From positions 1,922,001 through 1,986,000 of the forward strand of contig JAUFOQ010000006.1 of NCBI GenBank assembly GCA_040285855.1: a stretch of 64,000 nt of DNA, written 5' to 3'. The translations under genes and the position numbers were made by a program. This DNA comes from Eukaryota sp. GEM-RC1. Taxonomy: Eukaryota. The notes under the pieces were generated by a model. The model was not told the DNA's origin. It saw only the letters and a program-made list of their open reading frames with translations, and made no database searches. This document shows, piece by piece, positions 8,024-64,000 of this stretch. Each line of letters begins with the position of its first letter. Positions within the stretch are counted from its first letter, which is position 1.

Positions 8024-10089
8024 ATGAAAAAAAGCGGTAGTCTAAAATTTGTCGATACATTCGACTCATCTTCTTCAGGAATTATGGTACGGTCTTGGAA
8101 TCCATTATCATATCTTTCTTCAACTTCTTTTGGCTCATCACAGATGTGTGAAGAAAAGGCTTGTATGTATGAAGGAGATGCTGTACTTGAAGACATTCGA
8201 CCATCTGCTGAAGACATCCTTGACGAAGGTGAGATGTACTCTCATGTGAAGTACAGAGGACGAAGACCCTCCATTATTGATAAAACAATACACTTTCCAA
8301 CCATTGAGTCTGGGGTCTTGTCAATGGTGTTAAGGTTTTGTTCTACACTAATGAGTTCGGGAGAAACAGTTGCAGCAGATTTTCTGGAATCAATACCCGA
8401 CTTGAACGTCATTGAGTTGCTGAAGACGTCCACCTTTATGGAGATTGATGCATTGAGTCTCTGCCTGTGCAATCTACTAGCTAATAGACCAGAATGTATG
8501 TTTTAAGCGCATCTGACTTTAGTATGGACCAACATGACCAAGCTTCCTTCAATATTTTGCGAGGAAGTATTTCTCAGAGCTTCAATCTCAAACCTTGTAG
8601 ATAATCCATTGATCACTGAGAAGTGGTGGCGAATCATGGCAATGAGAAGATTCATATCAGAAGCCAAAGATAGTGTGTCAACTCCAGATAGAGTGAAATC
8701 GCCAGGTTTGTCAAAGTGGTTGAAAGAGTTTGACGATAGAATGGAATCGCCACATGTTGTAATCAGGAAGCATCTATCTTCGATGCATCGAAGTTCGATG
8801 GAAGAACACGAACCAGAAAAGAAATTGCTTTCGTCGTCCACTCCCTTTACATTTCATGAAGACATCCCGAATGGTTGCCATATTGTAGCTCCTCATCCCA
8901 CCAGTGTCAAGGGTCAATCTTATCCGGGATTTTGGAAAAGTGTCTTTCTCCAAAACTCGATCCAAGTTCAATGTGCAAAGTCTTCAATCATGACTACTGA
9001 TGAATCCAAGGATCGTTTGGCTGAACTTATCAGAAATGCCAATACAGTCACAGAACTCATCATCCGAGTTTCAACTCCTTCTATTGTCACCCACGCTTTG
9101 ACATATGGCTTTCTTAATTCATCTCTCTCCTCTCTTGAGTCTCTTGATCTCTCTAAAGTTGGTCTTGATGCCAGCTCAGCACTCGCTCTCGCTGCTTCTC
9201 TAGCAGGGAACACTACACTTCTCCGTCTTAATCTTGGTAACAACAAACTCCGTAATGAAGGAGCGCTGGCTTTATGTCGAATTCTCCAGACCACCCATCT
9301 TAAAACTCTTCACGCTGAACACAATGCTCTTGGCATCAACGCTGGAGTCACCATCTCCCAAGCTCTCTCCCACAACCGCCATCTCACTAAACTGGCACTT
9401 GGATACAACCAACTTAGAGGCAGAGGTGTGGCCGCCATCGCCAATGCTCTCAAACAGAACTCCATCCTCACTGCTCTTGACGTTGCCAACTGTTACATGG
9501 GTAACGAAGGAGCTCTAGCTCTAGCTGACTATATTAAATCCTCTTGTTCTCTCTCACTTCTCAGAGCCTGGGATAGTACAATGGGAAGAGAGGGGGTCAC
9601 GCTATCGCTATGGCTGTAGCTACCAACCATTCCTTGTTAGATGTTGGTGTTGGATACTCTTCTTTATCTAACGATGATCGAGAGTTAATTGAAGCAGTAC
9701 TAACTAGGAACAACTCTGCTAAAACTAGATCTAGCTCTGAGTTTTCCCCTGCTCCGCGACCTCCCTCTTCTGACATCTTTGCTGAACGACGTAAACATGA
9801 ACGAGATTTGTTGTATGGTGCGGATACCGTGTTTAGTGATCAATGGTTGTTGATAGACGAACATTGGTTAAGTAAGTGGAGAGCCTTTGTAGCTAGAGAT
9901 TCCAAGGAGAATCCACCTGGTCCAATTAGTAATGATAGATTGATAGATGAAGGCGGAGTTCCTAAAGAGGGAATGAGGAAGTTATATGATTATAGGGGGG
10001 TTTCAAGACAAGTGTATGGTCTGTTTGAATCTATTTATGGAGGAGGACCACCTATTATTAGGCAGACAATTGATTTGTATGCAGTTTAA
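8024..10089 (+). CDS. SKP1/POZ-like domain + RNI-like LRR + C-terminal DUSP domain protein
   Basis: IHFPTIESGVLSMVLRFC...ELLKTSTFMEIDAL (SKP1/ElonginC-like); 28-aa RNI-type LRRs; WLLIDEHWLSKWRAFV..PPGPISNDRL..DYRGV..IYGGGPPIIR (DUSP). Joined by a 27-nt intron and one missing G in the G-run at ~9592. Confidence 0.75.
8496..8522 (+). other. 27-nt spliceosomal intron
   Basis: GTATGT donor, CTGAC branch point and TTTAG acceptor. It removes the in-frame TAA between two same-frame ORFs, giving ...RPELWTNMTK... Confidence 0.85.
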
Positions 10090-16705: not shown

Positions 16706-16853
16706 TACCCTGTTCTACGCTTATATTTGGACCATGCTTGTATTGGGACCTCGACGATAACATCAATATGTGGGGTTTTGTTTTCTTGTTGTGTGTTTTT
16801 CTCCGTACATGAATCCGCTTCTATACTTAGGGTTCTAGGGTGCATTCTTGCTT

Positions 16854-16944
16854 TGATACCGTTTGGCTACAAAGGGTAGGGAAAAGATGTTTATAAATAA
16901 AATAATATGATCTTTTAACACTTCACTAACACCTGTGGCTAACA
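16854..16944 (-). repeat. 3' LTR (91 bp)
   Basis: 90/91 identical to 23578-23668. Confidence 0.95.
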
Positions 16945-18255
16945 TTACCTCTTCTCTTCTTTCGAGCTCCTAGTTCTCTTTGCTACAGGTGTCTTAACTT
17001 TGGAAGACGTCTTAGGAGTACTCTTACTACTGGAGGTACGTTTAAGCTTAGTGTTGTTATTACTAGACCTGTTTCTATTGTTACGAAATAAATCTAAATT
17101 GTCTAATTTTACAAAGTCACTATACGCTTTGGTGTTCTTGATGTCCTTGATGGGAACTGACGAAGTATCACCACCAAACCAAAGTACAGTGCAGAATTCA
17201 CCATCGGGTGTATCAAACCTATCTAGGATCTTAACCACGATGTGTTCTTCAGAATCCCCAGAAGCAATTGCTCTGTGGAGATCATGATCAGCAGGCAGAT
17301 CTGATTGAAAGATCTTACATTGATGAATGCTAGTCTTACTAACATATCCAGTGATCAGATTCTTTAATGAAACAGAAGATTTTGAATCAACTGAGACAAC
17401 TAGAAAAGGTCCAGTGTAGTTTCCATGGAGCTTACTTGTTTTGGCGACCTTTAACACAAGATCTCCTATCTTAAATGATTGACTAGTGTTAAACTTCTTC
17501 TTAGGCTTGAGTACTGATTGACGATCCTCTGCCTTTTCTCTTTTTTTCGTTAAACGTTCTAGTTTCATTTTAATGTCGTCAATAAACGAAACAGTCTTTG
17601 TTGATTTCTCAACAGCATCTAGTAAACCACTAGGATCTGCACCAGGACTTATGTCACTACCAAACATCAGTTCGTAAGGAGTATGCCCAGTTATTGAACT
17701 CTTTGTTGCGTTGATCTGCAACTGTACAGTTGGAATGTACGTTGACCAATTGTCATAATCATTGAAGTCCACAAGGAGACGACGTAGGCTTTGCAGAACG
17801 TCTCTGTGACGTCGTTCCACCAGTCCATTACTCTGGGAGAAATGAGGAATCGAACGACTTACTTCAATCGCCAGTAGGTTACATATTGCCTCGAAAATAG
17901 CATTGGCAAACTCCGTACCATTATCACTATGGATACAAAACGGTATTCCAAAGATAGCAATCACATCCCACACAAGACGATATGCTACTTCTCTACTGTT
18001 AAGTTCTTCGAGGGGGCTCAAAATGGTGTATCTGGTGAAAGAATCTACAAACACCAATAGGAATTGGTTTCCATTTTGATCTTTTGGAAGTGGACCGATT
18101 GTGTCGACATTAAGTCTAGCAAAAGGTCTATCAGCCCATAGAGAACCCGTCGATTCAATTATCTTTTTAGGAATAGGTGCCGTTTTCTGACACGCAGGGC
18201 ATTGCTGAACATGTTTTATCATGTCAGCTTTCATACTCTGGCCAAAAGTAACCAC
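16945..18255 (-). CDS. Integrase with C-terminal chromodomain-like region (3' part of pol, +1 break near 18240)
   Basis: HHCC (H..SGHP / CPAC); DDE (VDTIGP, HSDNGTEF, GLVERRH); EEHIVVKILD...GEFCTVLWFGGDTSSVP chromo-like segment. Confidence 0.9.
   Translation of the reverse strand: MVTFGQSMKADMIKHVQQCPACQKTAPIPKKIIESTGSLWADRPFARLNVDTIGPLPKDQNGNQFLLVFVDSFTRYTILSPLEELNSREVAYRLVWDVIAIFGIPFCIHSDNGTEFANAIFEAICNLLAIEVSRSIPHFSQSNGLVERRHRDVLQSLRRLLVDFNDYDNWSTYIPTVQLQINATKSSITGHTPYELMFGSDISPGADPSGLLDAVEKSTKTVSFIDDIKMKLERLTKKREKAEDRQSVLKPKKKFNTSQSFKIGDLVLKVAKTSKLHGNYTGPFLVVSVDSKSSVSLKNLITGYVSKTSIHQCKIFQSDLPADHDLHRAIASGDSEEHIVVKILDRFDTPDGEFCTVLWFGGDTSSVPIKDIKNTKAYSDFVKLDNLDLFRNNRNRSSNNNTKLKRTSSSKSTPKTSSKVKTPVAKRTRSSKEEKR
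16948..16963 (-). promoter_or_regulatory. Polypurine tract
   Basis: GAAAGAAGAGAAGAGG on the minus strand, separated from the 3' LTR only by the integrase TAA stop. Confidence 0.85.
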
Positions 18256-21200
18256 TATTGAACAATATTTCCAAACTTCGTTTCTTGTTTGGGTGTCCTG
18301 ACTGGACTAAGCCATGTAGCATGTAAAGAACTTTCTTTATTAAGCTAGATGGAATCAAAATCTTGTTCTTCGAGTTCATGTATACATTACTCATTGTACA
18401 CAAAGTTGAACCATTAAACAGTTGATCTCCTTGTTCTATCGCTTTAGATTGTTCTGACCTAATGGTGGATAACCAAGAGTCAAATAAAGGAAGTTTATTG
18501 TCTGTTGAGAGATTACGAAGGCACTTGATAGCTAATACGTTGGAGTCACGTGGAAGCATCTCAACATAGTCTGCATCATCATAAAGTAAGCCTTCATGAG
18601 AAAGGGTTAAATCACTTTTGATGGAAAGATTTGAGATCGTTAAAGATTTGATTGTTTCAACTGGGCGACGGTCAATGACACGTGATAACATGTCAGCCCA
18701 TTGATTGTTTGTACCAGCTACATGCTCTATCTCAAAATCAAACTCCGAGAAAATTGGAATCCATCGTTTGACAATACGATTCTTCTCTGGAGCTGAAATC
18801 AGATAAGCAAGGTTCCTATGATCTGTAAAGATCGTCAAATGCCTACTTAATAGGAAACCTTCTAAACTAGATTCGGTCAGAATCAAGAGAATGGCATACA
18901 GCTCTTTCTGGATAGCTGCCCAATTCTGTTGACTATCATTGAGTAAACGGCTATAAAACGATACAGGTCTAACTCTACGTTCTTCTAACGGAGTTCCTGG
19001 AGGAGCTGGGGGATTTTCTTCCTGCCAGATCACACCACCAACATCAATGTCGGATGCATCTGTGGATATGATAATGTTCTTATCAGTATCAGGTAAGTCT
19101 AAAGCCATATGGTTTATTATTTCGGTTTTAATTTTGTCTAATAAAGCATCATGGTCTTTTGTCCAAACAATTTTCTTGGGTTTACCACGAGTCAGTTTAT
19201 TGATTGATGCAGTCAAGTTCGAGTAGTTTGGAATCCATTCACGAACATAATTTAAAGCACCAAGTAAACTTCTTATCTCGGGTAAAGTTGAAGGAGCAGG
19301 TAACTCAATCAACGCCGAAACTCTTTTATCATCTATGCAACGGGTTTTATTACAAAAGTTGCTGCCGAGAATCTTATTAGGATGTCTAGAAGTGGTGAAC
19401 CTACACTTCTTCAATCCAATCCGTACTCTAAAACGTTCTGCTCGTTCCAGTACTAGATTTATTCTTGAAATAAACTCTTCAAAGGTATTGCCTACAACAA
19501 TTATATCATCAATATAAATGAAAACACCTTCGACATTGAAAATTTCCATCATGATGTTTTGAAAAATTGCTGGTACGTTTTTCAATCCAAAACATGCTCG
19601 TTTAAAGCTAATAGACATTCCAGGTATAGACACACTGGTCTTCTCGACATCTTCTTCAGCTACATTTAGCTGCCAGAATGCTTTAGGAAGGTCAAGTGTT
19701 CCAATGAAATTAGCTTTCGAAAGAAACTCTAGAACATCACAGATCCGTGGTAAATTTGGTTTCACCGGTCTGGTATTAGCATTAATCCCATCAAGTCCAC
19801 TGAAATCTCCAGTTAAACGAGGCTTACGGTGATCATTATAAACCACCAAGACTATGGGACTGCTGAACTTACCAGTTGATGGTACGGCCCATCCTTGTCG
19901 TATAAGTTCATTAAAAATTTCTTCGGCTATACGCTGTTTTTCAGGGTTAAGCCTTCTAGGAGGACGAAATACAGTGACACTTTCATCATAGAATGGAATT
20001 GTCATGGGTGGACAATCAATACCATCAGGATGTATATCTTCTGAAAAGACTTGTTTGTATTTACTGAGTAGGCTCAGAAGCTCCGTTCTTCTTGTAGAAT
20101 CATCCAATTCTATCGTGCAACCAGAGTTGTCAATGGTTTCTTCAAACAGATCTATATCTAATTGAGTGTTACCGTACTGATCAATAGTAAAATGTGTTGA
20201 ATTTGGTTTTATTGAACATTTTGATTGAACTCTATTAATCGAAATTGATGGAGACCTCATTCTCTCATCAAATTCACTCTCTGCATTGAGAATAGTGCTA
20301 TGTTCTTTATCTAATCTAATGACTAGACCATCATCCGAAAGCAACCCCAGTTCTTCTTGCAAGTCTCTACCAATGAGGAGAATTTTTGTTCCTGGAACTA
20401 CTGGTAGAGTATGCTTAACATGAATCTGGTTGGCCAAGCTGCCAACGTTGAACGTCAGAACACCTATTGCACTACCTAAGGAAGTAGCACGAATATTATT
20501 CGCTGAGATGTATTCAATACAACTATCAGTAGATGTCATCTCACAGTAGCGTATCAAATCTTGAGAAATGACTGAACATGATGCTGCTGAGTCAAATTCT
20601 CCTACTACTGGTACATTGTTGATTAACAATCGAATACATAAAGGACCCTTACCTTTAGAATCGAACCCTAGGTTCTGGTTGAGACTACGAATTGTTTCAA
20701 CAGATGATGTACTTCTACCCTTGCTTGAATGTGTGTTCAAAGCAGCCAATGGGTTCATGTACTTATGAGGTGTAGTGTGATTATCTCTAGATGTGTTATT
20801 TGTTGCAAGTCTGAAAATATAGTTATTCTGTTGTTTATTGGAACTAAAACGACGACTAAAAGATTGACTACGACTATCACCTGATCTACGTTTGTTGGAC
20901 TTTTTATCACTGTCAGATTGAGGTTTTGATCTACAATCAGTGGAGTAATGGCCCATTTTTCCACAGTTAAAACACTTAACCGTAGACTTAACATCTCCAG
21001 GTGTACCATGAGATTGAGAATGGGGCTTGTTTGCGGTATTTGGTCGATTTCTTCGATTTCTAGAAGGAAAACGACTGGAAGGAGTGGATAAGGACTTCAC
21101 AGCTGTGGAACGCTTGTAGGTAGTCCAGATCGATCTAACTTCTTGGAAGAATTGAGGTAGCTTATCATCCTCAGTTTTGAGACGATGATCCCATCTAAGA

Positions 21201-22429
21201 ACAAGTTCATTCAAAGCAATAATTCCTTTGTCAGGATTCAGTGTTTCTAACATCAACTCGGCTACTGTGGAAGCAGGGACCTTTGTTCGGACAGTTTCAT
21301 CACTCGACGTAGCTATCATCGCCATGGAACATTTGAGAACGCTAATTACGCCACGGAGGTATCGGTCAAAGCACTCAGCAGGGTCTTTGGAGCTACCCAA
21401 TCTTATTTCTTTAATTGCATCAATGGCTGTTGTAGTTGATGAGTATTGACTCTTGTTAATCAATAAACGCCAGATGTTTTGTTCAAGTACCTGACTACTG
21501 TTGTTAGTACCAATCAAATCTAACATTTTCCAATCATTCAAAGTTGTTTGATCTATGAAATGACTAATGCCAGCTGGATCAATTTCACACAATGCTGTCC
21601 TAGCAAGGTCGAATTTGTTCAAAGGAGTACCAATCCAGAGGTCATAATCGAAACGTTCAGTTTGTTTTCTGACATGAATGGCCCAATGAAAGAAGTCATG
21701 AATAAACTTCACAACCTCATAACTAGTGTCGTTTTTCAAGAACGGCTCTCTGTCTTTTTTCTTCTTGATCTTCTTGGGAGGAGTCACACCAGATGAGAGA
21801 ATAACAGAATCATGAAGGACATTGTCAGGACGTTCATCTTCAGAGGATTGACTAAGGTCGATGTGATTTTCAATCGATGGAGACAAATCAGGAAACTTGT
21901 TTGATTGTCTATCTCTTTCTGCTTTGGTTTTGTTGGCTTCAGCAATCAACGCGTTTCTATGTCGAATTTTCGGTTCTTCGAGTTCTTTTTTCGACATGAC
22001 TTTTGATTCTTGGTTCAAATCACGAGTGAAGTTCTCGGTTACACGGTAAACGTTTTCATGTTCTTCACTGGCAACAAACCGATCAACGTCTCCAAATTCT
22101 CCATCAAACTTTCTAGTTGAGAGAATATCACGTGAACCATCAGTGAAGCGGTCAACAGATTCTGGACGGAAAGGTTCACCAGGAACGTGAGCAGAAAGGC
22201 GAGCAGTTTGACGTAGCTCTTCAGGCTTGGGAAGAAGTGTACCAACTTCTCGTAAAGCACCATGAGCAACAGGAAGGACCTTTTGAGATCCACCAATGCC
22301 ACTAAACTGTTGGACAACCACAGAACCTTCATCAGGAACAGCTAAGGTCGTGTTTGATGCTTCCAAAGGTTGACTGTGGAAGGTTTTCATATCTATGACC
22401 AACGGGAAGGTGTCTAGAACTAACAGCAA
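18224..22429 (-). CDS. Gag-protease-RT-RNase H polyprotein
   Basis: CFNCGKMGHYSTDC zinc knuckle; FDSAASCS protease; LDLPKAFWQ, FGLKN and YIDD RT; TDASD, KELYAI and FTDHRNL RNase H. Confidence 0.95.
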   Translation of the reverse strand: MLLVLDTFPLVIDMKTFHSQPLEASNTTLAVPDEGSVVVQQFSGIGGSQKVLPVAHGALREVGTLLPKPEELRQTARLSAHVPGEPFRPESVDRFTDGSRDILSTRKFDGEFGDVDRFVASEEHENVYRVTENFTRDLNQESKVMSKKELEEPKIRHRNALIAEANKTKAERDRQSNKFPDLSPSIENHIDLSQSSEDERPDNVLHDSVILSSGVTPPKKIKKKKDREPFLKNDTSYEVVKFIHDFFHWAIHVRKQTERFDYDLWIGTPLNKFDLARTALCEIDPAGISHFIDQTTLNDWKMLDLIGTNNSSQVLEQNIWRLLINKSQYSSTTTAIDAIKEIRLGSSKDPAECFDRYLRGVISVLKCSMAMIATSSDETVRTKVPASTVAELMLETLNPDKGIIALNELVLRWDHRLKTEDDKLPQFFQEVRSIWTTYKRSTAVKSLSTPSSRFPSRNRRNRPNTANKPHSQSHGTPGDVKSTVKCFNCGKMGHYSTDCRSKPQSDSDKKSNKRRSGDSRSQSFSRRFSSNKQQNNYIFRLATNNTSRDNHTTPHKYMNPLAALNTHSSKGRSTSSVETIRSLNQNLGFDSKGKGPLCIRLLINNVPVVGEFDSAASCSVISQDLIRYCEMTSTDSCIEYISANNIRATSLGSAIGVLTFNVGSLANQIHVKHTLPVVPGTKILLIGRDLQEELGLLSDDGLVIRLDKEHSTILNAESEFDERMRSPSISINRVQSKCSIKPNSTHFTIDQYGNTQLDIDLFEETIDNSGCTIELDDSTRRTELLSLLSKYKQVFSEDIHPDGIDCPPMTIPFYDESVTVFRPPRRLNPEKQRIAEEIFNELIRQGWAVPSTGKFSSPIVLVVYNDHRKPRLTGDFSGLDGINANTRPVKPNLPRICDVLEFLSKANFIGTLDLPKAFWQLNVAEEDVEKTSVSIPGMSISFKRACFGLKNVPAIFQNIMMEIFNVEGVFIYIDDIIVVGNTFEEFISRINLVLERAERFRVRIGLKKCRFTTSRHPNKILGSNFCNKTRCIDDKRVSALIELPAPSTLPEIRSLLGALNYVREWIPNYSNLTASINKLTRGKPKKIVWTKDHDALLDKIKTEIINHMALDLPDTDKNIIISTDASDIDVGGVIWQEENPPAPPGTPLEERRVRPVSFYSRLLNDSQQNWAAIQKELYAILLILTESSLEGFLLSRHLTIFTDHRNLAYLISAPEKNRIVKRWIPIFSEFDFEIEHVAGTNNQWADMLSRVIDRRPVETIKSLTISNLSIKSDLTLSHEGLLYDDADYVEMLPRDSNVLAIKCLRNLSTDNKLPLFDSWLSTIRSEQSKAIEQGDQLFNGSTLCTMSNVYMNSKNKILIPSSLIKKVLYMLHGLVQSGHPNKKRSLEILFNSGYFWPEYES

Positions 22430-23561
22430 CGTTGTGATACGGATTGCTCAAGCTTTGACAATACCACGCTGAGTAAGCATACGTAACGTATCTACCATCG
22501 GCATCGAAACTAGGTTCCAATGGTTCAATCAAGATACCATGACGAGGATCCCATGAGTAATCCGAGGGATAACGATACGTATCCACAGCATCTCCATCAT
22601 ACAAATCACCGAGAAAGCGTTCAATAACTTGAGGGGAAATACCTGGAGGAACGTTCCTCAACAGATAGTGCCGTCTTTTAGGCATACGGTTGCGGATGAC
22701 AGGATGCCAAGGAGCGAACTTCGCCAAGTGCCACATGTCGTAATCAGAGATACCAACGCTGTTGTCTTGTGGACTTACCCAGCTATTTGGGATAGCATCC
22801 TTATGGAAGTGCTGTTCCTCAATAGACCCAACTAGCTCTTCGACTTTGTTGCCTCGATCTTCTGGAGAGAGACTCATCTTACGAGCTAGAAGTTCCTTTT
22901 CAACAAGAAGCTTCTGTTCTGCTTCGAGTCTTCTAGACTGCTCTTTGGCGAGAGATTCCTGTAACTTGCGAATCTCTTCAACCACTTCAGTTGACCTCTT
23001 TTGAGGAACTGGAACAACATCGGGAATGCTTTCTTTATTAAAACTATTTCTACGAGGAAGAATAGGGAGAGGAGACGCTGTTACAACAACATCATGAATC
23101 TCGGAATGCGGAGTACTGCTACTGTCAGCATCGCTTACTCTATACTTCTCTAACAAGCTTGGGATACGGTCTGAAATTACAGAGGGAGTATCCAAACCCA
23201 CTTCGCCATCCTTGCGGGAAGACGAAGTCCTTCCATCCTCAGATGGGCATCCACCTTCAGGTTGAACATCTACAACTCTACGAGAAGTAGATTCACCAAC
23301 CTCAGGTGAGATTTCCGTCACCTCCTTGTGGGAAGTGGGGCTTCTATCCTCAGATAGGCATCCGTCCTCAGACAGGCATCCATCCTCAAATGGGTCACTT
23401 TCAAAGTCCGACGAGTCAACTGACTCTTCTGTCTCAGGAACCAATGGCTCCTTTCGACGGGAAGACACTTTGGAGCTAGACTTAGATCTAGTCAAAGGTT
23501 TGTTTCTACGATTAGTTTTGTTTCCCGCTTTTGGGGGGTTAGTAGTCCTTTTCTTCACCAT
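22332..23561 (-). CDS. Upstream ORF1 of the gypsy element, unknown function
   Basis: ~409-aa ORF with ATG at 23561, just inside the 5' LTR boundary: basic N-terminus, acidic EDGCLS repeats, coiled coil and an aromatic-rich C-terminal domain. Overlaps gag-pol, which is in the +1 frame. Confidence 0.8.
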   Translation of the reverse strand: MVKKRTTNPPKAGNKTNRRNKPLTRSKSSSKVSSRRKEPLVPETEESVDSSDFESDPFEDGCLSEDGCLSEDRSPTSHKEVTEISPEVGESTSRRVVDVQPEGGCPSEDGRTSSSRKDGEVGLDTPSVISDRIPSLLEKYRVSDADSSSTPHSEIHDVVVTASPLPILPRRNSFNKESIPDVVPVPQKRSTEVVEEIRKLQESLAKEQSRRLEAEQKLLVEKELLARKMSLSPEDRGNKVEELVGSIEEQHFHKDAIPNSWVSPQDNSVGISDYDMWHLAKFAPWHPVIRNRMPKRRHYLLRNVPPGISPQVIERFLGDLYDGDAVDTYRYPSDYSWDPRHGILIEPLEPSFDADGRYVTYAYSAWYCQSLSNPYHNVAVSSRHLPVGHRYENLPQSTFGSIKHDLSCS

Positions 23562-23577
23562 CTTGGACAATAATTAT

Positions 23578-23668
23578 TGATACCGTTTGGCTACAAAGGG
23601 TAGGGAAAAGATGTTTATAAATAAAATAATATGATCTTGTAACACTTCACTAACACCTGTGGCTAACA
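23578..23668 (-). repeat. 5' LTR (91 bp)
   Basis: Direct repeat of 16854-16944, followed by TSD GCTT (23669-23672; left copy 16850-16853). Confidence 0.95.
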
Positions 23669-51582: not shown

Positions 51583-52127
51583 ATGGTCCATTTTTTTGCT
51601 CACATGTCGATGTTCATTGATTCGACGGCTATGAGAGGCCTGTTTTTGGTGGGAAAGTCATCCTATCAAATCAGGTGGAATTCTACAGAAGCAACTTCTG
51701 TAGATATCTTGTATCCATACAGCCTGGGTGGGACCGGGCGGCAATATGCTATTCAAAGGCATCATTGTTCAAGCAAAACCCCAAGGAAGGCATTTTTGGT
51801 CATTGATCCAATTCAATCCAAATTTTTTATTTTTTCGAAGTCGAGGGTTTTTTATGGGAGTATGTGTGTTGTTTTTGGCAGTCAGGCCTATCATTTTTAC
51901 ATGCCCAGCATGGTGATAGAACCACCAGGGCAACACACTGCTTTCCAGCCCCCAAACTTGCCTCCTTGTAAAATTCAGTGGATCGGTGGTGGTGGTGGTG
52001 GTTTTGGTGGTGGTGGTGAAATTTTATTGAAGTGTCGTTTTTGCAAATTTCTGTCAGTTTTGATTGTAGACTGCAGTTCAAAATTGATCTTACGTCTGAT
52101 GGTGATGTGGAATCCAATCCAGGTCCA
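51583..52127 (+). CDS. Putative leader polypeptide (Gly-rich) ending in a 2A-like peptide
   Basis: ATG at 51583 follows TATAAATA (51560). ORF 51583 joins the 2A frame if one base is added after 52020 (e.g. T-run 52022-52025). No recognisable domain. Confidence 0.35.
52086..52127 (+). other. 2A/StopGo ribosomal skipping peptide motif DLTSDGDVESNPG|P
   Basis: Exact D(V/I)ExNPGP consensus (52104-52127) with the upstream DLTxDG typical of viral 2A peptides; same strand as, and 128 nt before, the exonuclease-Fanzor ATG. Confidence 0.8.
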
Positions 52128-52255
52128 CAATCTAATCCCAATTCTGATCCCATCGGTACAAGATTGAGTGTTCCTTTTATTCGACTTGATGATTCGACTT
52201 CCATTGTTCCCCCCTGTTAAAAAAAAGTCGAGTTGATAGTAGTTCTAGTCCTCCA

Positions 52256-55200
52256 ATGTCCAATCTCGAAATTTTAGCAAGAGTTGCCAAAAAGGCTCAA
52301 GTTGAGGCCAAATCGCGGAGAGCTCCCTTGAAAATTAATGGACAACGCCTGTCTAATAGAGTTTTTCCTGCTAAGAAATCTTGTCTCAAAGCTTTGAGGA
52401 AAATTAAGCCACATGACAACAACGAAAAACAGAATTTGATTGAATTCGGATGTGCTCAAGAACACCCTAATACTTATGCTCTTCCAAAAATTATGTCTAT
52501 TGACCTGGAGACAATGCATCATGATGATGAAATTCCAACAGCTATTACGGAGGAATTTAGTAAGCTTCGAGGAAAGGAATCGCTGAAGTTAAAAAAGATG
52601 AATTCAGAAGAGCATGATCGATGGATTGCTAGCCAAAAAGTTATGTCAGTTGCATTAATTTTTGGCCGTTTTAATGAAGAAAATTTTTACGAAGAAAAAT
52701 CAATTATTATCTGTGTCAACCTTTGTGCAACAAACCTACCTTCTCCAATTGAATGCAGTTTATCCCCAAGAACTGAAATCTATGTTGTGCCCAATGAGTT
52801 GGTCCTGCTCCATATATTGATGGACGTGATTCAAGATTACCAGCCAAATTTCATTACTGGTCACAATATTATTGGATTTGACTTCAAAGTTTTGGAAAAG
52901 CGTTTCCAGTTTTATCAGTTCCCATGGCCTGTTAATGTCCAAGAATCCAACCTTAATCCTTTATCTAAAAACTGGCGTGAAGTTGTTAAAAATAAACACG
53001 GATACTTGATACTTGATACTTTATTGTTTGCAAAACGTTTTCTCACAATGAAATTTGGAAACGATTTACCATCTCTTACACGAAATCTGATACACGAATT
53101 TTGTCTCAGACTTAAAAAGGAAGAACTTGGAAATCTTTTGCCCATTGATTGTTGGTGTGAAAGTACACTGGTATCTCTCTTAGTTGATTACAATTATCAA
53201 CACGCCAACTTAACTTTAAAACTTTGTATGCTCTTTCAGAGAGAAAAATTTATTCTTCCAACTTATAGAATGGTAAAGTCTACTCTTCCACGAATTTTGA
53301 AGCATCGTGATGTCTTTGAAAACATTGTGCAGCTAGCACCTCAATTTCACGAACTTCGTCGCCATACCCTACAGTGCCTGCAATTGTTTTTATCAGCAAG
53401 ATTTGAACGTGGCGAAGCGTTACCTGAAATTACTGAACAAATGATTACGTCTGTAATGACTCGAATAAATTATCTCTGTGCCCAATTTTATGGTCAGCCC
53501 TATAAACGGCCCAGTAGTGCAATTGATGCGGACTTAGAACGATTTGTCATGGGAAAAGCACAATTCGACAGCAACTCAATTCACAAGGGCTATCGTATTC
53601 AGTTAGAAGCAAATGAAGGCCATAACTTTCCAATGTTTCCTCCTCAAGGCTTCTCTAGACCACCAGAATACATTGCTCCAGTACTCCTGTGTAACATTAA
53701 CAACAACTTGAAACTCCACTTTGAAAAACATATTAATCGTTTCATTAACGTATATTTTGGAAAAAACAGTCTGAAGAAGAAATTTCAAATTTAATTAAAG
53801 AGCTGCCAAAAGAAGAACGACCTGATTGTCAACAAACTTTAACTTTGTATCGTTTTGCTCTTCGACAGATTAAAGACATTTTTACTGCTGAATCTGTCGA
53901 TAACTTCAACTTGTTACTTTCAAATCAATTTTGCCTAGAAAAGTTTGAAGAAGATTGGAAGGATAAAGCAGGGGAAAAAGGAATGACACCTCACGAACAA
54001 GACTTTTTATACGATGCCTTTATTTACCCGTATGTCGTTGAAAAATTTGAAATTTTGCAGAGATCACCTCCTTTTGAATTAAGAGTGCTTCGACCATTTA
54101 CTAAAATTTTGGAACTCGAAAAAAAGCCTCAATTATTCATGCCGGCAGCCATAACTATGAATCGTTATGTGAAGGAGAAAGAAGCAGCGGCTTTTCATTG
54201 GTTTCCCGCTGTAACCACGGTAATCCCAGGCTACTTTCCTATTGATACTAGAACTTTGTGGAGTATCGTTAGGCAAAACAAAAAAACCAAGGATCTGAAG
54301 TTCATGAACAACCAGGCTGAGGTGACCAAGTTCAAACCAAAAGACCAACATGATTTTTGGAAAATGTTTGTAAACTTCGATTTAAAAGAATTCAAAAAGA
54401 AAGATTATGTGTTCAACAACATTATCCACAGTGACGGTCAAAACTGTTCACTTGAGTTAGTTAGGCGTGACTTTGCTGGTGAAAAAGAGGTAAGGATGAT
54501 TTACAAGGAAAGATTAAAGAAGTTTATTGTAAAGACTTGAGAGCAGAAAAATTTACAACAAAAAAAGTAGTTGTCTGTGACCCTGGAAAAAGGGATCTAC
54601 TTTATTTTGGTGTAAGAAATGAAGAACAAATTCAAGAAAACAAGTGTAATTGGCTGCGACTGACACAATGCAAATGGACTGTGGTAGCAAGAAAGCAACA
54701 ACACCTGCTAAAAGGTGCCAGAAGAAAGTTCAAAGTTAGACCATCAAGAAATAGATCAAATCAAGATTCTGAAAGTACTCCACCGCTCACAATTGAAGAA
54801 ACTGATAGCTTGCTTTCAGGATTAAGTCCAAAATCTGCCACGTTTGCTGATCTCGAAGCTTGGGTCCAGGCCAAAATGAAACAAGTGACGTCAACCGCTT
54901 GGTTTTACTGTTCTGCCTTATGGCGCATCCAAAAAATGCGTTCCTACATCCATAAGCAGAAAGTAGAGTCCTGGTTGTTGAAGTCACTCGAATCGACTTT
55001 TGGACGAAGAAGAGAAGAACTACTGATCTGTATGGGTGATTTTGGGGCAAATGGTCAAGTAAATTTGAAACATCACAGACCGACAAGAGGAATCGGATGG
55101 CGGTCTTTCTTGAGAAGAAATGGATTTGAAGTCGTTTTATTGAATGAAAAGAAAACGTCCAGTTGCTGCCCAGATTGTGAAAGTGAGGTGAAGAAGTTCC

Positions 55201-55404
55201 ATAAGATCGAGAATCCAAGACCCTACAGAAGAGAAAAAACTCCAAAAGTGCTTTTGTCATGGTCTACTTGAGTGTCGAAGCGAGAATTGTAGAGGATCAA
55301 GCGAGAGAAAGTATTGGAATCGTAATCAGCTTGCGTGTTTGAATATGTTGAGAATAGTAGATGGGTATAGAGAAGGAAGAGGAAGACCTGAATATCTCTC
55401 GTAG
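52256..55404 (+). CDS. Family-B DNA polymerase 3'-5' exonuclease domain fused to Fanzor1 (TnpB-like RuvC), ~1,050 aa reconstructed
   Basis: ExoI SIDLET, ExoII GHNIIGFD, ExoIII YNYQH. Then Fanzor1 blocks: MVKSTLPRILK, NNLKLHFEKHINRFINVYF, WFP..TVIPGYFPIDT, IHSDG.CS, RuvC-I VCDPGKRDL, GDFG..PTRGIG, RuvC-II LNEKKTSSCCPDC, HGLLEC..C, RuvC-III WNRNQLACLN. Three single-base breaks in A/T runs (~53761, ~54482, ~55252). Confidence 0.88.
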
Positions 55405-55545
55405 TTAGTAACGTAGTATAACTTTCCCCGGAGGGAGTATGCAGAGATGTATACTGTATTGCCTTCGGATTTTGTAGAGTAATTAAGGAAGATGTGTGAA
55501 AACAGTCCTCGGACTGAGTAGAAATGCATTTGAAATGAAATACAC
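55405..55545 (+). ncRNA. Putative Fanzor omega-RNA scaffold (locus 1)
   Basis: Directly 3' of the Fanzor stop. Hairpins AGTATGCA-GAGA-TGTATACT and CAGTC-CTCG-GACTG. Block ATGCATTTGAAATGAAAT(A/C)CAC is shared with the second Fanzor locus. Confidence 0.7.
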
Positions 55546-55679
55546 CTTTAGATTTGAAATTACGAGCTTGTCGTTTTATCAACGGATGTTGTCTTGACAC
55601 ACTTTATACATCTGACACAATAGTTATCATGAGTCAAAAGAGTCAGTGTTACACGAGTTCATGTACATGTAGTATGAAT

Positions 55680-56269
55680 CATGGAACGCAAATGTTCCGT
55701 ACCGCGGCGATTTTAGGCGTACCGTACCGTACCGTACCGTACCGTACGTACGTACGGTACATGTACCGGTACTGTACTTGGGACCGACTAAAATCAACCA
55801 TTACTGTTTTGAACATGATTATCCAATGTGAGATTTTAACAGTTACCATCGTCATAAATTCTACCGTTAGACATTGCTCAGGATATCAAAATCCTGATTG
55901 TCACATCTATTCAAATTTAGGGTACGTCATTTGCTGACCACAACTTCCCCAAAATGAGTTGTTTACGTAAGAACCTCAGCAATCGCTCGAAATCAACAAT
56001 AGTAGTAGCTTCTTCGAATTGCAATGCATTTATTGAGTGGCTACGACGGAATATAACAATGATACAGGGCCCAAAAACCCACAGATTGGATTTCTAAACG
56101 ATCAGATGATGCAGTATCAATTGGCACTAGTACTGTGTTTGACTAGTGAATCTCAAAAAATAGTATTTGTAAATCCATTTCGATCATTCATAAATAGGCT
56201 TTTTATAAAATCAAAGGACATCGGTACGGATAAAATAAATCGGTACGTACCAAAGATTTGCGCACATTG
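55680..56269. mobile_element. Degenerate hAT-type MITE, 590 bp
   Basis: Weak TIRs CATGGAACGCAAAT / CAATGTGCGCAAAT; flanks GTATGAAT / TAATGAAT (6/8); left (CGTAC)n repeats mirrored by CGGTACG on the right. Confidence 0.5.
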
Positions 56270-59759: not shown

Positions 59760-60602
59760 AGTATCTAAACTATGATCCTTCTGTCCATCATCGAACAACT
59801 TACCTAAAATTGAATTATAATATCTGTGCATTGAACGAAACAACGCAAAAATATCCTACTCAACCAAAAATTTTCATTGAAAACTTTACCGTACCCAGAA
59901 CACAATTTACCAAAGGAAGTTAAAAATCTTGTGCAGCTGGTCCAATATTACCGTATATCGACATCGCAAAAGGTTGAAACACAAAAGAATTGTACCTGTC
60001 AACATTCAACTGGTTAATTAAGTGACAGTACTTTGTTTTTTTTCCTTTTCCAGCCACTTCAAGAGCAGAAAAATCATCATCAAAAATTTTGGAAATTGAT
60101 CTTGAATTACAAGGATCAACAGTCGTGAAATCCATGATAATTTCCTGACAAGATAACCAAGGACCAATCAAATCACCACGACTTCTATCAACTTTTGGCT
60201 GATCAGAAAGATTAGCAAGTAAAGGTTTAATTTTTCCATGAAAACCATTAGCCTTAAACATATCCAAACATGTATCCCGGATACCGTTGTGAATAATTGA
60301 TCTAAAATGAATAAATTTATGACAGTTAACTAAATGATGAAAATTTGAAGCCTTTGAACGACCACAAAGACATGGAGAATGCTTCAAAAGACCTGAAGGC
60401 CATAAACCTAACCTAAGTCTCATGTTTATACACCATTCATGATCCTTAAGATTAAAACAAAATTTTCTTGACCAACGAGAAACAAATGAAGACGCAGTGC
60501 TTGAAGAAATATCATTCAAAAAGCACAAAAAGCGGGACTCTTAGTGCGGGACTCTCTTGCCAAGCTAATATATGTAGAAACTTAATCAGTGAGTAAACAC
60601 CC
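59760..60602 (-). mobile_element. 3' fragment of a CRE-like non-LTR retrotransposon, abutting the Fanzor locus 2 end
   Basis: ORF 59920-60528: WCINMRLRLGLWP, CLCG..HLVNC, IHNGIRD, RGDLIGPW and FQPFAMSIYG. Upstream TATTAGCTTGGC (ISLA) matches the 464-2140 copy. The 5' boundary is uncertain (60570-60602). Confidence 0.75.
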
Positions 60603-60706
60603 GTGGATTTCATTTCAAATGCATACACCTATATGCACTATCACCACAGTTTGACACATTGTGCCACTCATTTGCAAGCCTTTTAGGACGAGCTAACTTA
60701 TAAGAT
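60603..60706 (-). ncRNA. Putative Fanzor omega-RNA scaffold (locus 2)
   Basis: Directly 3' of the Fanzor stop. Hairpins ACTGT-GGTG-ATAGT and TGCATAT-AGGT-GTATGCA; shared 18-nt block at 60607-60624. Confidence 0.7.
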
Positions 60707-63700
60707 TCAGGATTCCGGTTCTTGATTCTCTACTTGTGAGTCTTTGGGTACATCTCTCTGGGCCTTACTTGGGCAATTTCTTCTATCATGTCCTGGTTGT
60801 CTACATATCGTACATGTACGAGGACTTTTAGGAGGCACAGGTCTTTGAGGACACTTTGCCGTTGTATGGCCTTCCATATGACAAAACTGACACTTACTCA
60901 CACTCTTCTTCTTGGGAACCTGATCTGTAATCCCACCATCCTCGATAGTTATTGTTTGAGATTTTGGTCTCTCGAGGACAGCAGGTCTACCTTGACCTTG
61001 GATAATTCCATTTACAATGTTATAAATGTTAATAGCAGAGTTGAAGTCTCTATTCCAGCGGACATGACATTTAGCACACTGAACTAAGCCCCATGGTGAG
61101 ACTTTGTTGCTCTTCAATCTTTCTTTCATGAATGGCAACTGTTTGGTCCATTCATCATCAAAATTACGTTTCACAACATTGCCTAATTGATTGTGTTCCA
61201 TCACTTCTTTTTTCAATTTCTTCTCCTCCTTCTGTAACTTCTTCTTCCACAGAGGATCAATGACTTTGACAAAGTCAGGATTGGAACAGATACCTTCCTG
61301 GTCTTCAGCAGCACAAGCAGAGCAACATTTGCTTGTCATAAATTCATCAACTAAGAAAACTTTAAATCCAAATTTTCTTAGTAAGTTTCGAAGAGTAGCG
61401 CCTTTTACTGTACTTGCCTTACCCCTTCTTCTTCGGAATTGAGTGTCATTCCAATCCCCAAAACCAACAACGACTTCATTGGGATCACCATATTGGAGAG
61501 CTAATCTGTGGACCAAGTTTTGTTCCCTTCGTTCTTTTCTTGAATATTGGGTAAGGCGTCTACGTCTAAAAAATTTTTCTTCATAAAGGCCTTCTGTTGT
61601 AGCAGGTATTTGTTGAGTTGGTCCTTTCTTAGGTAGTTTCTTTGATGGTCCTTTCTTAGATAGATTCTTTGATGGTCCTTTCTTTTGATGTAATCCTTCA
61701 GCAGTTGCTTTTCCAGTTGTGGTTGATCTCATTAATGCACAGAAAACTTCATTGTTAACCATGTATCTTGAAAATTCTTCCAATTTACATGATTTTCTTC
61801 TTGGAGTATCAGAACTGTAGGAATCCAGTATTTTCTGACCATTCCACACACTCTTCTCAAACTCAGTTGAGTACCTCTGTAATCGTTCACTTTCGGTCAA
61901 TTTGACAATTCCTCTGTTGCCACGTTTCCTTTCAAGTTTTTTGAAATTTCGTTTTTCCTTTCGTTCCTTTTTAGCTTTTTTTCTTTTTTTGTTTCTTTGT
62001 CAATTTTTTTGGAACTGTGATGGCTGATTTTTTCTTGGTTTCCATCTAGATTTGTTAATATCTGCCTTTCTCTCCCCAGCAGTGTATCGGAACACCTTCC
62101 ATTTGTCACGCCTTTTCCACTTTACAGGTTGTGGGTTAGTGTCTTGCTTCCAATCATTTAATTGTTTTTTCATTTTTTCAAACTTCCCCTTTTCTTAGAA
62201 GATAATGGAGCAATCTTTCTTTTTCTAACTAGGGTAACTGGCTTGGGCTCAATTTCCTTCTCACTTGAGGAATCATCCTTCTCAACTGAGGAATCAATAG
62301 ATTGTTCATTGGAAGTAAGATCAATTTCTGTAACACAAGCATTGGCCATTCCATTTTCTATCAATTGTTTTGTTTCATCGACTTCAAATTTCTCACACGC
62401 CTCTTCCTCATCAGTTTTTAAACTGGCACAATACATGAGATCATGTTGGTTGGGGTCAACAGCAACAATTCTCTTAGATTTTAAATTCAGCTCTTCAATT
62501 TCATCTTCACTTAAGGAATCAATATAACGCTCATTTGAAGCAAGATTAACTGCTATAACATTTTCACGGGCATTTCCATTTTCATCAAGTAAATCTTTCC
62601 TCATCATCAACAAACTACAACTTAAACCGTCTGACAAAATTGAAGTGTATTTAAAGTCATAGGATAATGACTCTGGAATAGCCTGAGGTTTTAATACTGA
62701 ATTCCAAATAGGTTTCCGTACATCATTATAGTTATAGGGAAGATCCCTACAAAATATTTCGTGAAACCATTGCGTATCGAACCTGATATGATTTGGAATT
62801 AAAGATTTAGACAACGGGAAAGGATTGTTTGCTCTTACACCAGGACAATAGTCTTCAATGAGACGGTTCAAATATAATGCATGACTTAAAAAGTATAACG
62901 GATCACTCTTTTCGGCATAGTAGATCGTTTTCTCCATCTTTCCTTCAAAATAATTAAACAAATAATTGAAGAATAATATACTCAAGTGAGATTCCGGATT
63001 GGTAAAAACTTGCTTGTCATCAAAATTAATTTTGGAAATTTCACCATTAATGATCAATTCTCTAACTTCATTAATCCTTTGACAGAGTTCTTGTCTTTGG
63101 GTTTTGTCAGTAAGAGCTTCCATTCTCTCTTTCTTTTGAGTAACCAAGTTAAAGACTTGAAAAACATACTCATGAAAGTGTTGGCTCATGTTGTTCTTAT
63201 AATTAGTAATAATTTCGGTTGCAACGTAACCGAGAGGGTTAGACAAATATAGTCCACTTGGAAACACGATCCTATCTCTGCCAACCATTTCACCAGCAGT
63301 TTCTAACAGAGGGATGTAGTTTGATAGGAAGTGTTGGGCGAACTCCTTCTTTGTAGTTGTTGTTTTTGCATTAGAAATGATGTTTTGTAAAGAGTTTTCC
63401 ACAGTTTTAATATGATCAGTACTGTTGAAAAATTGGTGATTTGGAATCCACATCATGGCCAACAGTTGTGACATTGGAGTCAACTTAAAGTAAGCTCCCC
63501 AGTCTGGTAATTCAAATTTGGTAGTTTGAATTTTAGTAAAAAGGTCAAGTTCAGGTTCACCAGTTTCATTTTCATCACCGTCTTCTTCTAAAATATGGCT
63601 GTCTTCTTCTGAAATTTCGGATTCAATTGTACGATCCAAACCAAAATCAGGGTCTGAAGTCACAGGCAATTCAGTTTCTTCTTCTAATTGTTGAGGCACA

Positions 63701-64000
63701 AACTCTTCACTTAAAACTTCTGTTTGTTCAGTGTCTGAAACTTCTGTGTCTGTTTCAATTTCTTCTTTAACAGTGAAAATGTAGTCAGATGGAGGTAGTA
63801 TCTCTTTGACCTTGTCGAAAATTAGAGAGTTGTGAAACTTAGTTACGAAAAAATGTTTCAACATATGAGTACCACGAACTCTGACTTGATGAGCTCTCTT
63901 AGCACAAGACTCCATCCAATTGGCTTTAGTCTTTGATACAACATTATCTAATCGTTTCTTCACTGTCTTCAATGGTGGTCGTTCTCTTAATTTTTGCTTC
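60707..64000 (-). CDS. Fanzor1 (TnpB-like RNA-guided RuvC nuclease) with two C-terminal CCHC zinc knuckles; 5' end outside window, ~1,100 aa or more
   Basis: KTVKKRLDNVV, YVATEIITNYKNNMSQHF, FPLSKSLIPNHIRFDT, ILSDGLSCS, ERYIDSL, RuvC-I VAVDPNQHDL, VFRYTAGER, FGDW, RuvC-II VDEFMTSKCCSAC, WGLVQCAKC, RuvC-III WNRDFNSAIN. Breaks fall in poly-A Lys-rich tracts (61900-62200). Confidence 0.92.

What the first reader, a model, noticed from the sequence alone, without database searches (positions are those of the whole stretch)
60707..64000. Very large, catalytically intact Fanzor with a twin CCHC zinc-knuckle tail
Seen: the D (62455), E (61343) and D (61046) triad and the CxxC...CxxC finger are intact. 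After RuvC-III come two retroviral-type knuckles, CQFCHMEGHTTAKC and CTICRQPGHDRRNC (~60770-60892). There are large acidic insertions in REC and after RuvC-I, Lys-rich inserts, and a 3x27-bp KKGPSK repeat (~61610-61690). The frame is open to the window edge, so further N-terminal domains may exist. Inference: the knuckles may bind or chaperone the omega-RNA or ssDNA. With locus 1, this suggests a lineage in which Fanzors readily gain accessory domains.
Basis: partly seen in the sequence, partly recalled or inferred. Interest (0 to 1): 0.7.

Follow-up and report, generated by a model that had tools for sequence, protein, structure and literature searches.

The report
Giant multi-domain Fanzor with zinc knuckles
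This jumping gene, likely from a single-celled eukaryote, encodes a Fanzor-type enzyme predicted to cut DNA under RNA guidance; it has two zinc-knuckle motifs at its tail that its sister copies share and an exonuclease-like domain at its front, its reading-frame breaks are likely sequencing slips, and the knuckles likely help it grip single-stranded RNA or DNA.

Summary
The motifs are real: D-E-D triad, C4 finger and two CX2CX4HX4C knuckles sit at the stated places. As assembled, though, the gene is broken between RuvC-I and RuvC-II by a -1 shift and a TGA, both at poly-A runs. These are likely read errors (about 65%): 15 of 19 other frame changes in the window lose a base, and 2 of 8 family copies read through the first break. 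No fetched twin-knuckle copy is whole. Both knuckles are present in 8 of 8 cluster members that reach the C-terminus. Three related families carry one knuckle; 0 of 79 metagenomic Fanzor1s carry any. The missing N-terminus is resolved: a PolB-type exonuclease domain with decayed motifs. Relatives add a Ulp1 protease and a 2A peptide, so the protein is about 1,400-1,750 aa, against the usual 600-700. A candidate guide-RNA/right end lies 100 nt past the stop. Verdict: a new multi-domain variant of Fanzor1, not found in my literature searches; knuckle function is untested. The scan earlier noted a different, N-terminal knuckle pair on a fungal Fanzor1 (e1-7323960).

The parts
62170..64000 (-). 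Frame A (609 aa, open at the window edge): REC, WED and RuvC-I of a Fanzor1. It is letter for letter the C-terminal 609 aa of P0189 (937 aa), whose extra 328 aa carry a PolB-type exonuclease domain
63555..63771 (-). Acidic low-complexity insert after the first REC helix (72 aa, 40% D+E; pLDDT under 50)
62455..62457 (-). RuvC-I catalytic Asp in a DPN motif (SpuFz1 also has D383/N385)
62247..62415 (-). Acidic insert after RuvC-I (56 aa, 34% D+E); much shorter in the single-knuckle sister family
62170..62178 (-). Break 1: A6 run followed by TGA, a -1 frame change; P0177 and P0192 read through it
62000..62194 (-). Frame B (64 aa; includes FRYTAGER), ending in an in-frame TGA at 62002-62000
61976..62033 (-). 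Break 2: one A6 and three A7 runs in a Lys-rich stretch; P0192 follows a different frame of the window across it
60707..61999 (-). Frame C (430 aa): RuvC-II, C4 zinc finger (PF07282, 30.7 bits, cut-off 26.3), RuvC-III and knuckle tail
61619..61684 (-). 27-bp tandem repeat (2.4 copies) coding KKGPS/T units; 2 to 4 units among copies
61343..61345 (-). RuvC-II catalytic Glu, six residues before the first finger Cys (Fanzor-type placement)
61067..61324 (-). C4 zinc finger split by a 79-aa, Lys-rich two-helix insert
61046..61048 (-). RuvC-III catalytic Asp (WNRD)
60851..60892 (-). Zinc knuckle 1 (CX2CX4HX4C, with an aromatic residue); found only in this subfamily
60773..60814 (-). Zinc knuckle 2 (CX2CX4HX4C, no aromatic residue); matches the single knuckle of three related families
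60596..60706 (-). Candidate omega-RNA scaffold and transposon right end. Holds an 18-nt block (60624-60607) shared exactly with the 3' flank of the window's other Fanzor, and an end-like motif at 60623-60596
   Evidence: folding not significant
60581..60595 (-). Predicted guide segment (about 15 nt of flank), if the right end is placed correctly
   Evidence: inference and the 14-15 nt guide of SpuFz1
52104..55541 (+). Comparison locus: a second, diverged Fanzor1 with a 2A motif (52104) and PolB-type exonuclease, no knuckle, and the same 18-nt 3' block (55524-55541); also broken by frame changes

Best explanation
This is the 3' part of a multi-copy Fanzor1 transposon gene whose likely single protein of about 1,400-1,750 aa is predicted to load a guide RNA from the ~110 nt behind its stop codon and cut matching DNA, with two C-terminal zinc knuckles on a flexible tether that likely act as an extra grip on single-stranded nucleic acid. 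SHOWN: Fanzor1 motifs and fold match; knuckles in frame with RuvC-II/III and kept in paralogues; exonuclease-like domain upstream; breaks at A-runs. INFERRED: (1) the breaks are homopolymer read errors in this copy (about 65%), and the family had active members recently (about 80%); (2) the nuclease serves the usual Fanzor role of re-cutting emptied donor sites so that repair restores the element; (3) one knuckle was gained once in this lineage and a second, aromatic one added later; (4) the knuckles hold the omega-RNA 5' part or the displaced DNA strand near the RuvC/finger region, an accessory rather than an essential role (about 45%, the largest share among the options); (5) in this subfamily the exonuclease, and probably the Ulp1-like domain, are catalytically dead and would act at most as binding modules.
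For: Foldseek matches with E<=0.001 are all Fanzor1 structures: 6 of 6 for frame C and 7 of 7 for P0189. Cluster P0181 has 14 members: 8 of 8 that reach the native C-terminus (7 besides the window's own) have both knuckles, 2 have the first and then leave frame, 4 end earlier. In the sister family 17 of 17 listed members that reach the C-terminus have one knuckle (only 15 of the 26 members of cluster P0001 were listed). P0077/P0206 and P0009 (another species) have one knuckle with different spacer residues, while the tail is only 39-55% identical between families. Knuckle carriers form one side of a branch (SH-aLRT 87) with the twin clade (100) nested inside. AF2: core pLDDT over 90, linker under 50, knuckle 2 at 84-90. 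Breaks: 15 of 19 other frame changes lose a base; 14 of 19 overlaps hold a run of 5 or more, against 4.9 expected (0 of 2000 draws); P0177 and P0192 read through break 1; four sister-family proteins read through both sites. Relatives P0005/P0171 are unbroken 1473/1479-aa 2A-exonuclease-Fanzor proteins. 3' end: an exact 18-nt block is shared by the two Fanzors (0 of 5000 real pairs reach 16 nt), and a profile from 26 metagenomic Fanzor1 ends ranks sites at the two 3' ends first and second in the window.
Against: No fetched twin-knuckle copy is continuous from RuvC-I to RuvC-III. Five of the 8 family sequences that reach break 1 (the window's own included) stop at the same place, which also fits a real shared lesion; none reads through break 2 into frame C. 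The 19 frame changes are not independent: four are copies of one repeated site and two belong to the other Fanzor. The intact relatives and the window's other Fanzor have no knuckle, so it is not needed for the family to spread. The tail scores under Pfam's zf-CCHC cut-off, and PDB matches are weak (best E 0.0023). The candidate RNA does not fold better than shuffles (z -0.2 to -1.5) and shows no covariation; a gapped alignment of the two 3' flanks was matched by 105 of 2000 shuffles. The end profile was built after I saw the likeness, needs a 7-nt spacer where all training ends have 4, and 18 of 100 simulated windows reach the same score somewhere. The tree is the quick one, and the knuckle branch is unstarred.
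Confidence: 0.55

Rival explanations
1. The breaks are real: this copy, and perhaps the whole twin-knuckle subfamily, is a pseudogene that spread passively, so the twin tail never works on a full nuclease.
For: Five of 8 family sequences stop at the same SLKK; none reads through break 2; exonuclease and Ulp1-like motifs are decayed in this subfamily. A-runs are mutation hot spots (general knowledge).
Against: Ordinary host genes in the window break in the same way and direction. The breaks fall at A-runs rather than at random codons. Two copies read through break 1. The triad and all finger and knuckle ligands are kept. The named relatives' assemblies were built from Nanopore reads corrected with Illumina reads (10.1101/2023.05.03.539051, passages).
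Confidence: 0.25
2. The knuckles bind double-stranded DNA, chromatin, the element's ends or a partner protein, like the C-terminal knuckles of DNA-transposon proteins, and have no role with the omega-RNA.
For: The knuckle shared by all four families lacks an aromatic residue. The nearest named Atlas cluster is a CCHC protein set with SWIM in 30% of members (score 0.86, a lead only); SWIM plus knuckle is the MULE pattern (recalled). Kolobok transposases also gained a CCHC finger late (PMC9587614, passages).
Against: The best, weak PDB matches are RNA-binding nucleocapsid, Xrn-type, TUT7 and Lin28 knuckles, and the RSV pair aligns without gaps. The added knuckle has an aromatic residue.
Confidence: 0.3
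3. The tail is a neutral hitch-hiker, a piece captured from another element and kept only by descent.
For: Tail identity between sister families is 55%, against 81-82% for the core. Knuckle-less relatives exist.
Against: All four ligands persist in four families across two species while the spacers change, and a second knuckle was added. Self-BLAST shows no DNA likeness to the Ty3 knuckle in the window.
Confidence: 0.12
4. The breaks are removed in the cell by short introns or by programmed frameshifting.
For: A 21-nt GT..AG stretch (62015-61995) would remove the TGA in frame; the window holds a 27-nt intron-like stretch at about 8496-8522. Break 1 is AAA followed by a stop.
Against: The candidate donor (GTTCCA) and acceptor (AAG) differ from the host example (GTATGT, TAG). 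Read-through copies carry the Met after the A-run, and P0192 follows another frame across break 2; both point to run length.
Confidence: 0.06

Closest known systems
SpuFz1, Spizellomyces punctatus Fanzor1 (PDB 8GKH, 9CEU-9CEZ; PMC10432273)
   Same: REC/WED/RuvC/finger layout, D-P-N at RuvC-I, Glu six residues before the finger, candidate omega-RNA between stop codon and right end; top sequence and fold matches.
   Different: SpuFz1 ends a few residues after the RuvC-III helix; here 112 residues with two knuckles follow the catalytic Asp. Here there are also long acidic and basic inserts and an N-terminal exonuclease-like domain.
PpFz1, Parasitella parasitica Fanzor1 with the FRI insert (PDB 9CF0-9CF3; PMC11423790)
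   Same: An enlarged Fanzor1 with an added domain; best fold match of the N-terminal model.
   Different: FRI is a ~100-aa insert inside RuvC that binds cyclophilin. Here the additions are terminal domains, and the inserts are low-complexity.
Mariner-type Fanzor1 elements with TIRs and TA duplications (PGv-1, PUl; PMC3627910), and metagenomic Fanzor1 loci L009-L088
   Same: The candidate right end resembles the end motif found behind 64 of 79 metagenomic Fanzor1 genes.
   Different: Longer spacer, and TT instead of TA after the motif; left end and transposase not seen. The link of that motif to PGv-1 was not confirmed in the supplement search. None of the 79 has a knuckle or exceeds 730 aa.
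CCHC knuckles of retroviral nucleocapsid (RSV NC 2IHX), Lin28 and TUT7
   Same: CX2CX4HX4C spacing, a tandem pair with a 12-residue basic/proline linker.
   Different: Below the PF00098 cut-off; knuckle 2 has no aromatic residue; fused to an RNA-guided nuclease.
DNA transposons with accessory DEDD exonucleases (KolobokD; P and piggyBac) and retroelements with 2A plus deubiquitinase domains
   Same: Mobile elements that carry 3'-5' exonuclease, protease or 2A add-ons (PMC9587614, PMC3627910, 10.64898/2026.06.17.732966; passages).
   Different: There the add-ons accompany a transposase or reverse transcriptase. Here a PolB-type exonuclease, Ulp1 and 2A are in one frame with a Fanzor.

Membership tests
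Fanzor1 | RuvC D-E-D triad with the Glu six residues before the zinc finger | tested here: met
   E219 and C226 of frame C; feature from PMC10711439
Fanzor1 | DPG-type RuvC-I motif | tested here: met
   DPN variant. Yoon et al. call it near exclusively DPG, but SpuFz1 has D383/N385, and 48 of 150 library hits have DPN
Fanzor1 | C4 zinc finger followed by RD | tested here: met
   PF07282 30.7 bits, cut-off 26.3; spacer 79 aa, above the 95th percentile (77) of 115 homologues
Fanzor1 | Fanzor1-type REC/WED fold | tested here: met
   Foldseek E 2e-11 to 1e-8 to PpFz1, SpuFz1 and GtFz1; next hit E 0.58
Fanzor1 | One continuous reading frame joining RuvC-I to RuvC-II/III | tested here: inconclusive
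   Not continuous as assembled; the error pattern and read-through paralogues argue for artefact; no reads available
Fanzor1 | omega-RNA encoded at the 3' end | tested here: inconclusive
   Shared 18-nt block and end-like motif; no significant fold or covariation
Fanzor1 | Lies within a transposon with defined ends and target duplication | tested here: inconclusive
   Multi-copy; right-end candidate at about 60598; left end outside the window; no clear inverted copy before the other Fanzor
Fanzor1 | RNA-guided, TAM-dependent DNA cleavage | not testable with these tools
   needs bench work
Retroviral-type zf-CCHC knuckle (PF00098) | CX2CX4HX4C spacing | tested here: met
   two copies
Retroviral-type zf-CCHC knuckle (PF00098) | Score above Pfam's curated cut-off | tested here: not met
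   16.5 against 20.8 bits; the tail passes PF16588 instead (31.4 against 26.2)
Retroviral-type zf-CCHC knuckle (PF00098) | Binds single-stranded nucleic acid | not testable with these tools
   needs binding assays
PolB 3'-5' exonuclease domain (PF03104) | Profile match | tested here: met
   P0189 30.7 bits, cut-off 23; Atlas structure hits TM 0.43-0.48; my AF2 model of this part is low-confidence
PolB 3'-5' exonuclease domain (PF03104) | Acidic catalytic motifs Exo I-III (labels recalled) | tested here: not met
   P0005 has DVE, FD and YCVND; the aligned places in P0189/P0178 read EVK, FP and SINKL
Ulp1 protease (PF02902) | Profile match and His/Asp/Gln/Cys residues in the twin-knuckle subfamily | tested here: not met
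   P0178 (one sequence) has no Pfam match and aligns Q to H and C to S; P0179, P0196 and P0199 of the related family pass the cut-off with all four residues

The most novel reading that the evidence does not exclude
Skoliomonad-type protists host a lineage of giant Fanzor1 polyproteins (2A - Ulp1 protease - PolB exonuclease - Fanzor - CCHC knuckles) that are self-contained RNA-guided copying machines: the nuclease cuts, the tethered exonuclease trims the ends, the protease tunes host SUMO-dependent repair or silencing, and the knuckles anneal or load nucleic acid so that the element spreads without a transposase of its own.
Probability: 0.12. Interest if true: 0.85.

Novelty: new variant of a known kind. 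Interest (0 to 1): 0.58.

Why it matters
Fanzor1 proteins are described as compact (mostly 600-700 aa; PMC11423790, passage), with PpFz1's ~100-aa insert as the noted exception. This lineage more than doubles that size by fusing an exonuclease domain, a SUMO-protease domain, a 2A peptide and one or two zinc knuckles to the nuclease. It forms a natural series with zero, one or two knuckles and with live or dead exonuclease. That series makes it testable what accessory domains do for RNA-guided homing in eukaryotes, and whether natural exonuclease or knuckle fusions change guide loading or editing outcomes. The knuckle tail alone is a modest add-on; the whole architecture is the more surprising part.

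Tried and rejected
No whole genome is held for the window. No sequencing run was listed, so breaks and expression could not be checked with reads. A search for homologues of 754-2150 aa with frame C found none (weak evidence). Single-protein scans of metagenome and viral contigs found no close relative. The 18-nt block has 8 exact matches in viral contigs, none with a Fanzor (0 of 8), and it is not enriched behind 78 metagenomic Fanzor1 genes, so it is lineage-specific. Folding of the 3' region is not significant. MAFFT did not align the long 3' flanks usefully. No convincing left inverted repeat was found before the other Fanzor (best 13 of 16). Capture of the knuckles from the window's Ty3 element has no DNA support. 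The AF2 model of the exonuclease part is under pLDDT 50 over most of it and was not used. The careful tree did not finish; the quick tree was used, 6 of 75 rows were dropped for lacking a motif, and P0009/P0077 were not given to it. Intron and programmed-frameshift readings were considered and ranked low. No complex prediction was run. Searches of earlier findings by place, by sequence and by two word sets gave nothing.
Full report
1. OBSERVATION. Two CX2CX4HX4C motifs lie at 60892-60851 and 60814-60773, in the same stop-free frame as RuvC-II/III; chance expectation is about 6e-5 per 100 residues. The acidic inserts, the Lys-rich finger insert and the 27-bp repeat (2.4 copies) are present. The gene is not continuous as assembled: frame A (609 aa, open at the edge) ends in AAA-AAA-TGA at 62170, frame B (64 aa) ends in TGA at 62002-62000, and frame C (430 aa) follows.

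2. IT IS A FANZOR1. Frame C passes PF07282. Its AF2 model has a confident core, and its 6 Foldseek matches at E<=0.001 are all SpuFz1 or PpFz1. The model of P0189 matches 7 Fanzor1 chains at E 2e-11 to 1e-8, with the next hit at 0.58. The Glu lies six residues before the finger, the Fanzor fingerprint (PMC10711439, passages). DPN instead of DPG is shared with SpuFz1 (PMC10432273, passages; alignment).

3. ARE THE BREAKS REAL? No reads were available. In the rest of the window, 15 of 19 frame changes between overlapping ORFs of at least 150 aa lose one base. 14 of 19 overlaps contain a run of five or more, against 4.9 expected (0 of 2000 draws). A/T runs drop at length 5 to 6, and none exceeds 8. 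These rows are not independent (four copies of one site, two in the other Fanzor), and this gene's own breaks are not among them. Break 1 is at an A6 run. Of 8 family sequences that reach it, 2 read through (P0177, P0192), 5 stop at the same place (the window's own included) and 1 leaves frame shortly before. At break 2, P0177 stops like the window and P0192 follows another frame of the window, which points to A-run length but gives no whole copy. Four sister-family proteins read through both sites. The named relatives come from Nanopore assemblies corrected with Illumina reads (10.1101/2023.05.03.539051, passages). I put the chance that this copy is really intact at about 65%.

4. THE KNUCKLES ARE A FAMILY TRAIT. 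A tail-based search found 3 clusters among 28 candidates. In cluster P0181 (14 members, 97% identical over the query region), 8 of 8 members that reach the native end have both knuckles, 2 have the first and then leave frame, and 4 end earlier. The sister family (81-82% core, 55% tail identity) has one knuckle in 17 of 17 listed members that reach the end. P0077/P0206 and P0009, the latter from another species, also have one. Among the best 150 library hits 4 have a knuckle, all from records named as Eukaryota sp. GEM-RC1 or TZLM1-RC, which the paper above places among skoliomonad metamonads; the median tail after RD is 40 aa, against 112 here. None of 79 metagenomic Fanzor1 ORFs (from 80 loci) has one. 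In a quick ML tree of 69 cores the 7 knuckle carriers form one side of a branch (87, unstarred), with the twin clade (100) inside. This fits one gain and a later second knuckle. AF2 puts the pair on a disordered tether, knuckle 2 at pLDDT 84-90. The tail is under the zf-CCHC cut-off. Weak PDB matches are RNA-binding knuckles, best RSV nucleocapsid at E 0.0023. The nearest named Atlas cluster has SWIM in 30% of members, a lead only. 'Retroviral-type' therefore describes the spacing, not the origin.

5. THE MISSING N-TERMINUS. P0189 (937 aa) ends letter for letter in frame A and adds a PF03104 domain whose acidic motifs are replaced. P0178 (91% identical) extends 240 aa further into a region that aligns with the Ulp1 domain of P0199, but with Q to H and C to S (one sequence). 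P0179, P0196 and P0199 (47-49% identical to P0189) begin with a 2A motif, then a Ulp1 domain with His/Asp/Gln/Cys, then the exonuclease domain. That they are the front of the single-knuckle family is my inference. P0005 and P0171 are unbroken 1473/1479-aa proteins with 2A, an exonuclease with intact motifs and Fanzor, without knuckle. The window's other Fanzor has 2A and exonuclease. Summed lengths give about 1,425 aa from P0189's start and at least 1,660 with P0178's extension. A 2A in the twin-knuckle subfamily itself was not seen.

6. THE 3' END. Both Fanzors in the window are followed by the same 18 nt; among 5000 real pairs of 300-nt stretches the longest shared word was 15. Behind 64 of 79 metagenomic Fanzor1 genes lies a common end motif. 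A two-block profile from 26 distinct examples ranks 55563 (inverted, next to the other Fanzor's 18-mer) and 60623-60596 (right orientation, this gene) first and second in the window. No real 200-nt stretch of 2964 scores as high, but 18 of 100 simulated windows do somewhere; the test was post hoc and allowed a free spacer. Folding is not better than shuffles and shows no covariation, and a gapped alignment of the flanks was reached by 105 of 2000 shuffles. The right end near 60598 and a ~110-nt scaffold are thus a reasonable, unproven reading. It would leave the knuckle codons outside the RNA, so their conservation is more likely at protein level.

7. MECHANISM. By analogy with SpuFz1 and the homing model (PMC13565253, passages), the protein would load the right-end RNA and cut emptied donor sites. 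The knuckles, tethered behind RuvC-III, most likely add grip on single-stranded nucleic acid (omega-RNA or displaced strand; about 45%). The alternatives are dsDNA, element ends or a partner protein (30%) and a neutral tail (12%). They are accessory, since relatives without them exist. All functional steps are inferred.

8. LITERATURE. 'Fanzor' with 'zinc knuckle': 0 papers. Listings for Fanzor with CCHC/Ulp1/2A/DEDD/metamonad (25 of 134 shown), TnpB with knuckle terms (20 of 413), Fanzor with 'exonuclease domain' (4 of 4) and searches showed no paper on this architecture. I saw passages of PMC3627910 (also section 7 whole), PMC10432273, PMC10711439, PMC10530073, PMC11423790, PMC13565253, PMC9587614, PMC6338049, PMC12338488, 10.64898/2026.06.03.729735, 10.64898/2026.06.17.732966 and 10.1101/2023.05.03.539051; none of those passages describes such fusions, and the two 2A surveys do not mention Fanzor or TnpB in their main text. 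In 12 of the 14 supplements of PMC3627910 no NPGP and no knuckle-type GHN/GHD word was found, apart from one unrelated GHNA (line-wrapped sequences can hide motifs). Supplements of the 2023 surveys, bioRxiv supplements and Repbase were not seen and may hold these proteins. An earlier scan note (e1-7323960, unchecked) reports N-terminal CX2CX4HX7C knuckles on a fungal Fanzor1, a different add-on.

9. VERDICT. Observation partly confirmed; new variant of Fanzor1; interest 0.58. The family-level architecture is solid. The integrity of this copy and the role of the knuckles are open.

Noticed in passing
window 52104-55541 (+): Second Fanzor1 with a 2A motif (DVESNPGP at 52104) and a PolB-type exonuclease domain (PF03104, 60.7 bits), no knuckle, several frame changes; its RuvC-II region reads LNE and RuvC-III reads NRN.
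   Followed up: partly
window 55541-55563: Directly after the shared 18-mer of the second Fanzor lies an inverted copy of the Fanzor1 end-like motif (top profile score in the window), possibly the left end of a small related element; a CGTAC-repeat palindrome follows at 55709-55795.
   Followed up: partly
window 59923-60540 (-), 1265-2137 (+), 14739-15868 (+): Several diverged fragments (31-60% identical) of one Cys/His-containing protein that looks like the C-terminal end of a non-LTR retroelement (label recalled; no Pfam match). One begins about 55 nt beyond the Fanzor's candidate right end.
   Followed up: partly
window 16853-23668 (-): Ty3/gypsy-type LTR retrotransposon with RT, RNase H, integrase, one zf-CCHC and 92-bp direct repeats (99% identical) at 16853-16944 and 23577-23668.
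   Followed up: partly
window 24683-48706 (-): A 24-kb gene of internal repeats, split by many frame changes that recur at the same T- or A-runs in each copy; used as a control for homopolymer errors.
   Followed up: partly
window ~8496-8522 (+): A 27-nt intron-like stretch (GTATGT...CTGACTTTAG) removes an in-frame stop in a host gene, suggesting very short introns.
   Followed up: no
P0005, P0171 (named Eukaryota sp. TZLM3-RCL): Unbroken 1473/1479-aa 2A-exonuclease-Fanzor1 proteins with intact exonuclease motifs: the best candidates for a bench test of the fusion.
   Followed up: partly
P0219: A twin-knuckle copy whose second knuckle ends like that of the single-knuckle family (GHNKTTC), hinting at exchange between the families.
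   Followed up: no
L009-L088: 64 of 79 metagenomic Fanzor1 genes are followed within 18-152 nt of the stop by one strongly conserved end motif.
   Followed up: partly
window 464-1453: Three near-identical 330-bp tandem copies covering the start of one of the retroelement-like fragments.
   Followed up: no
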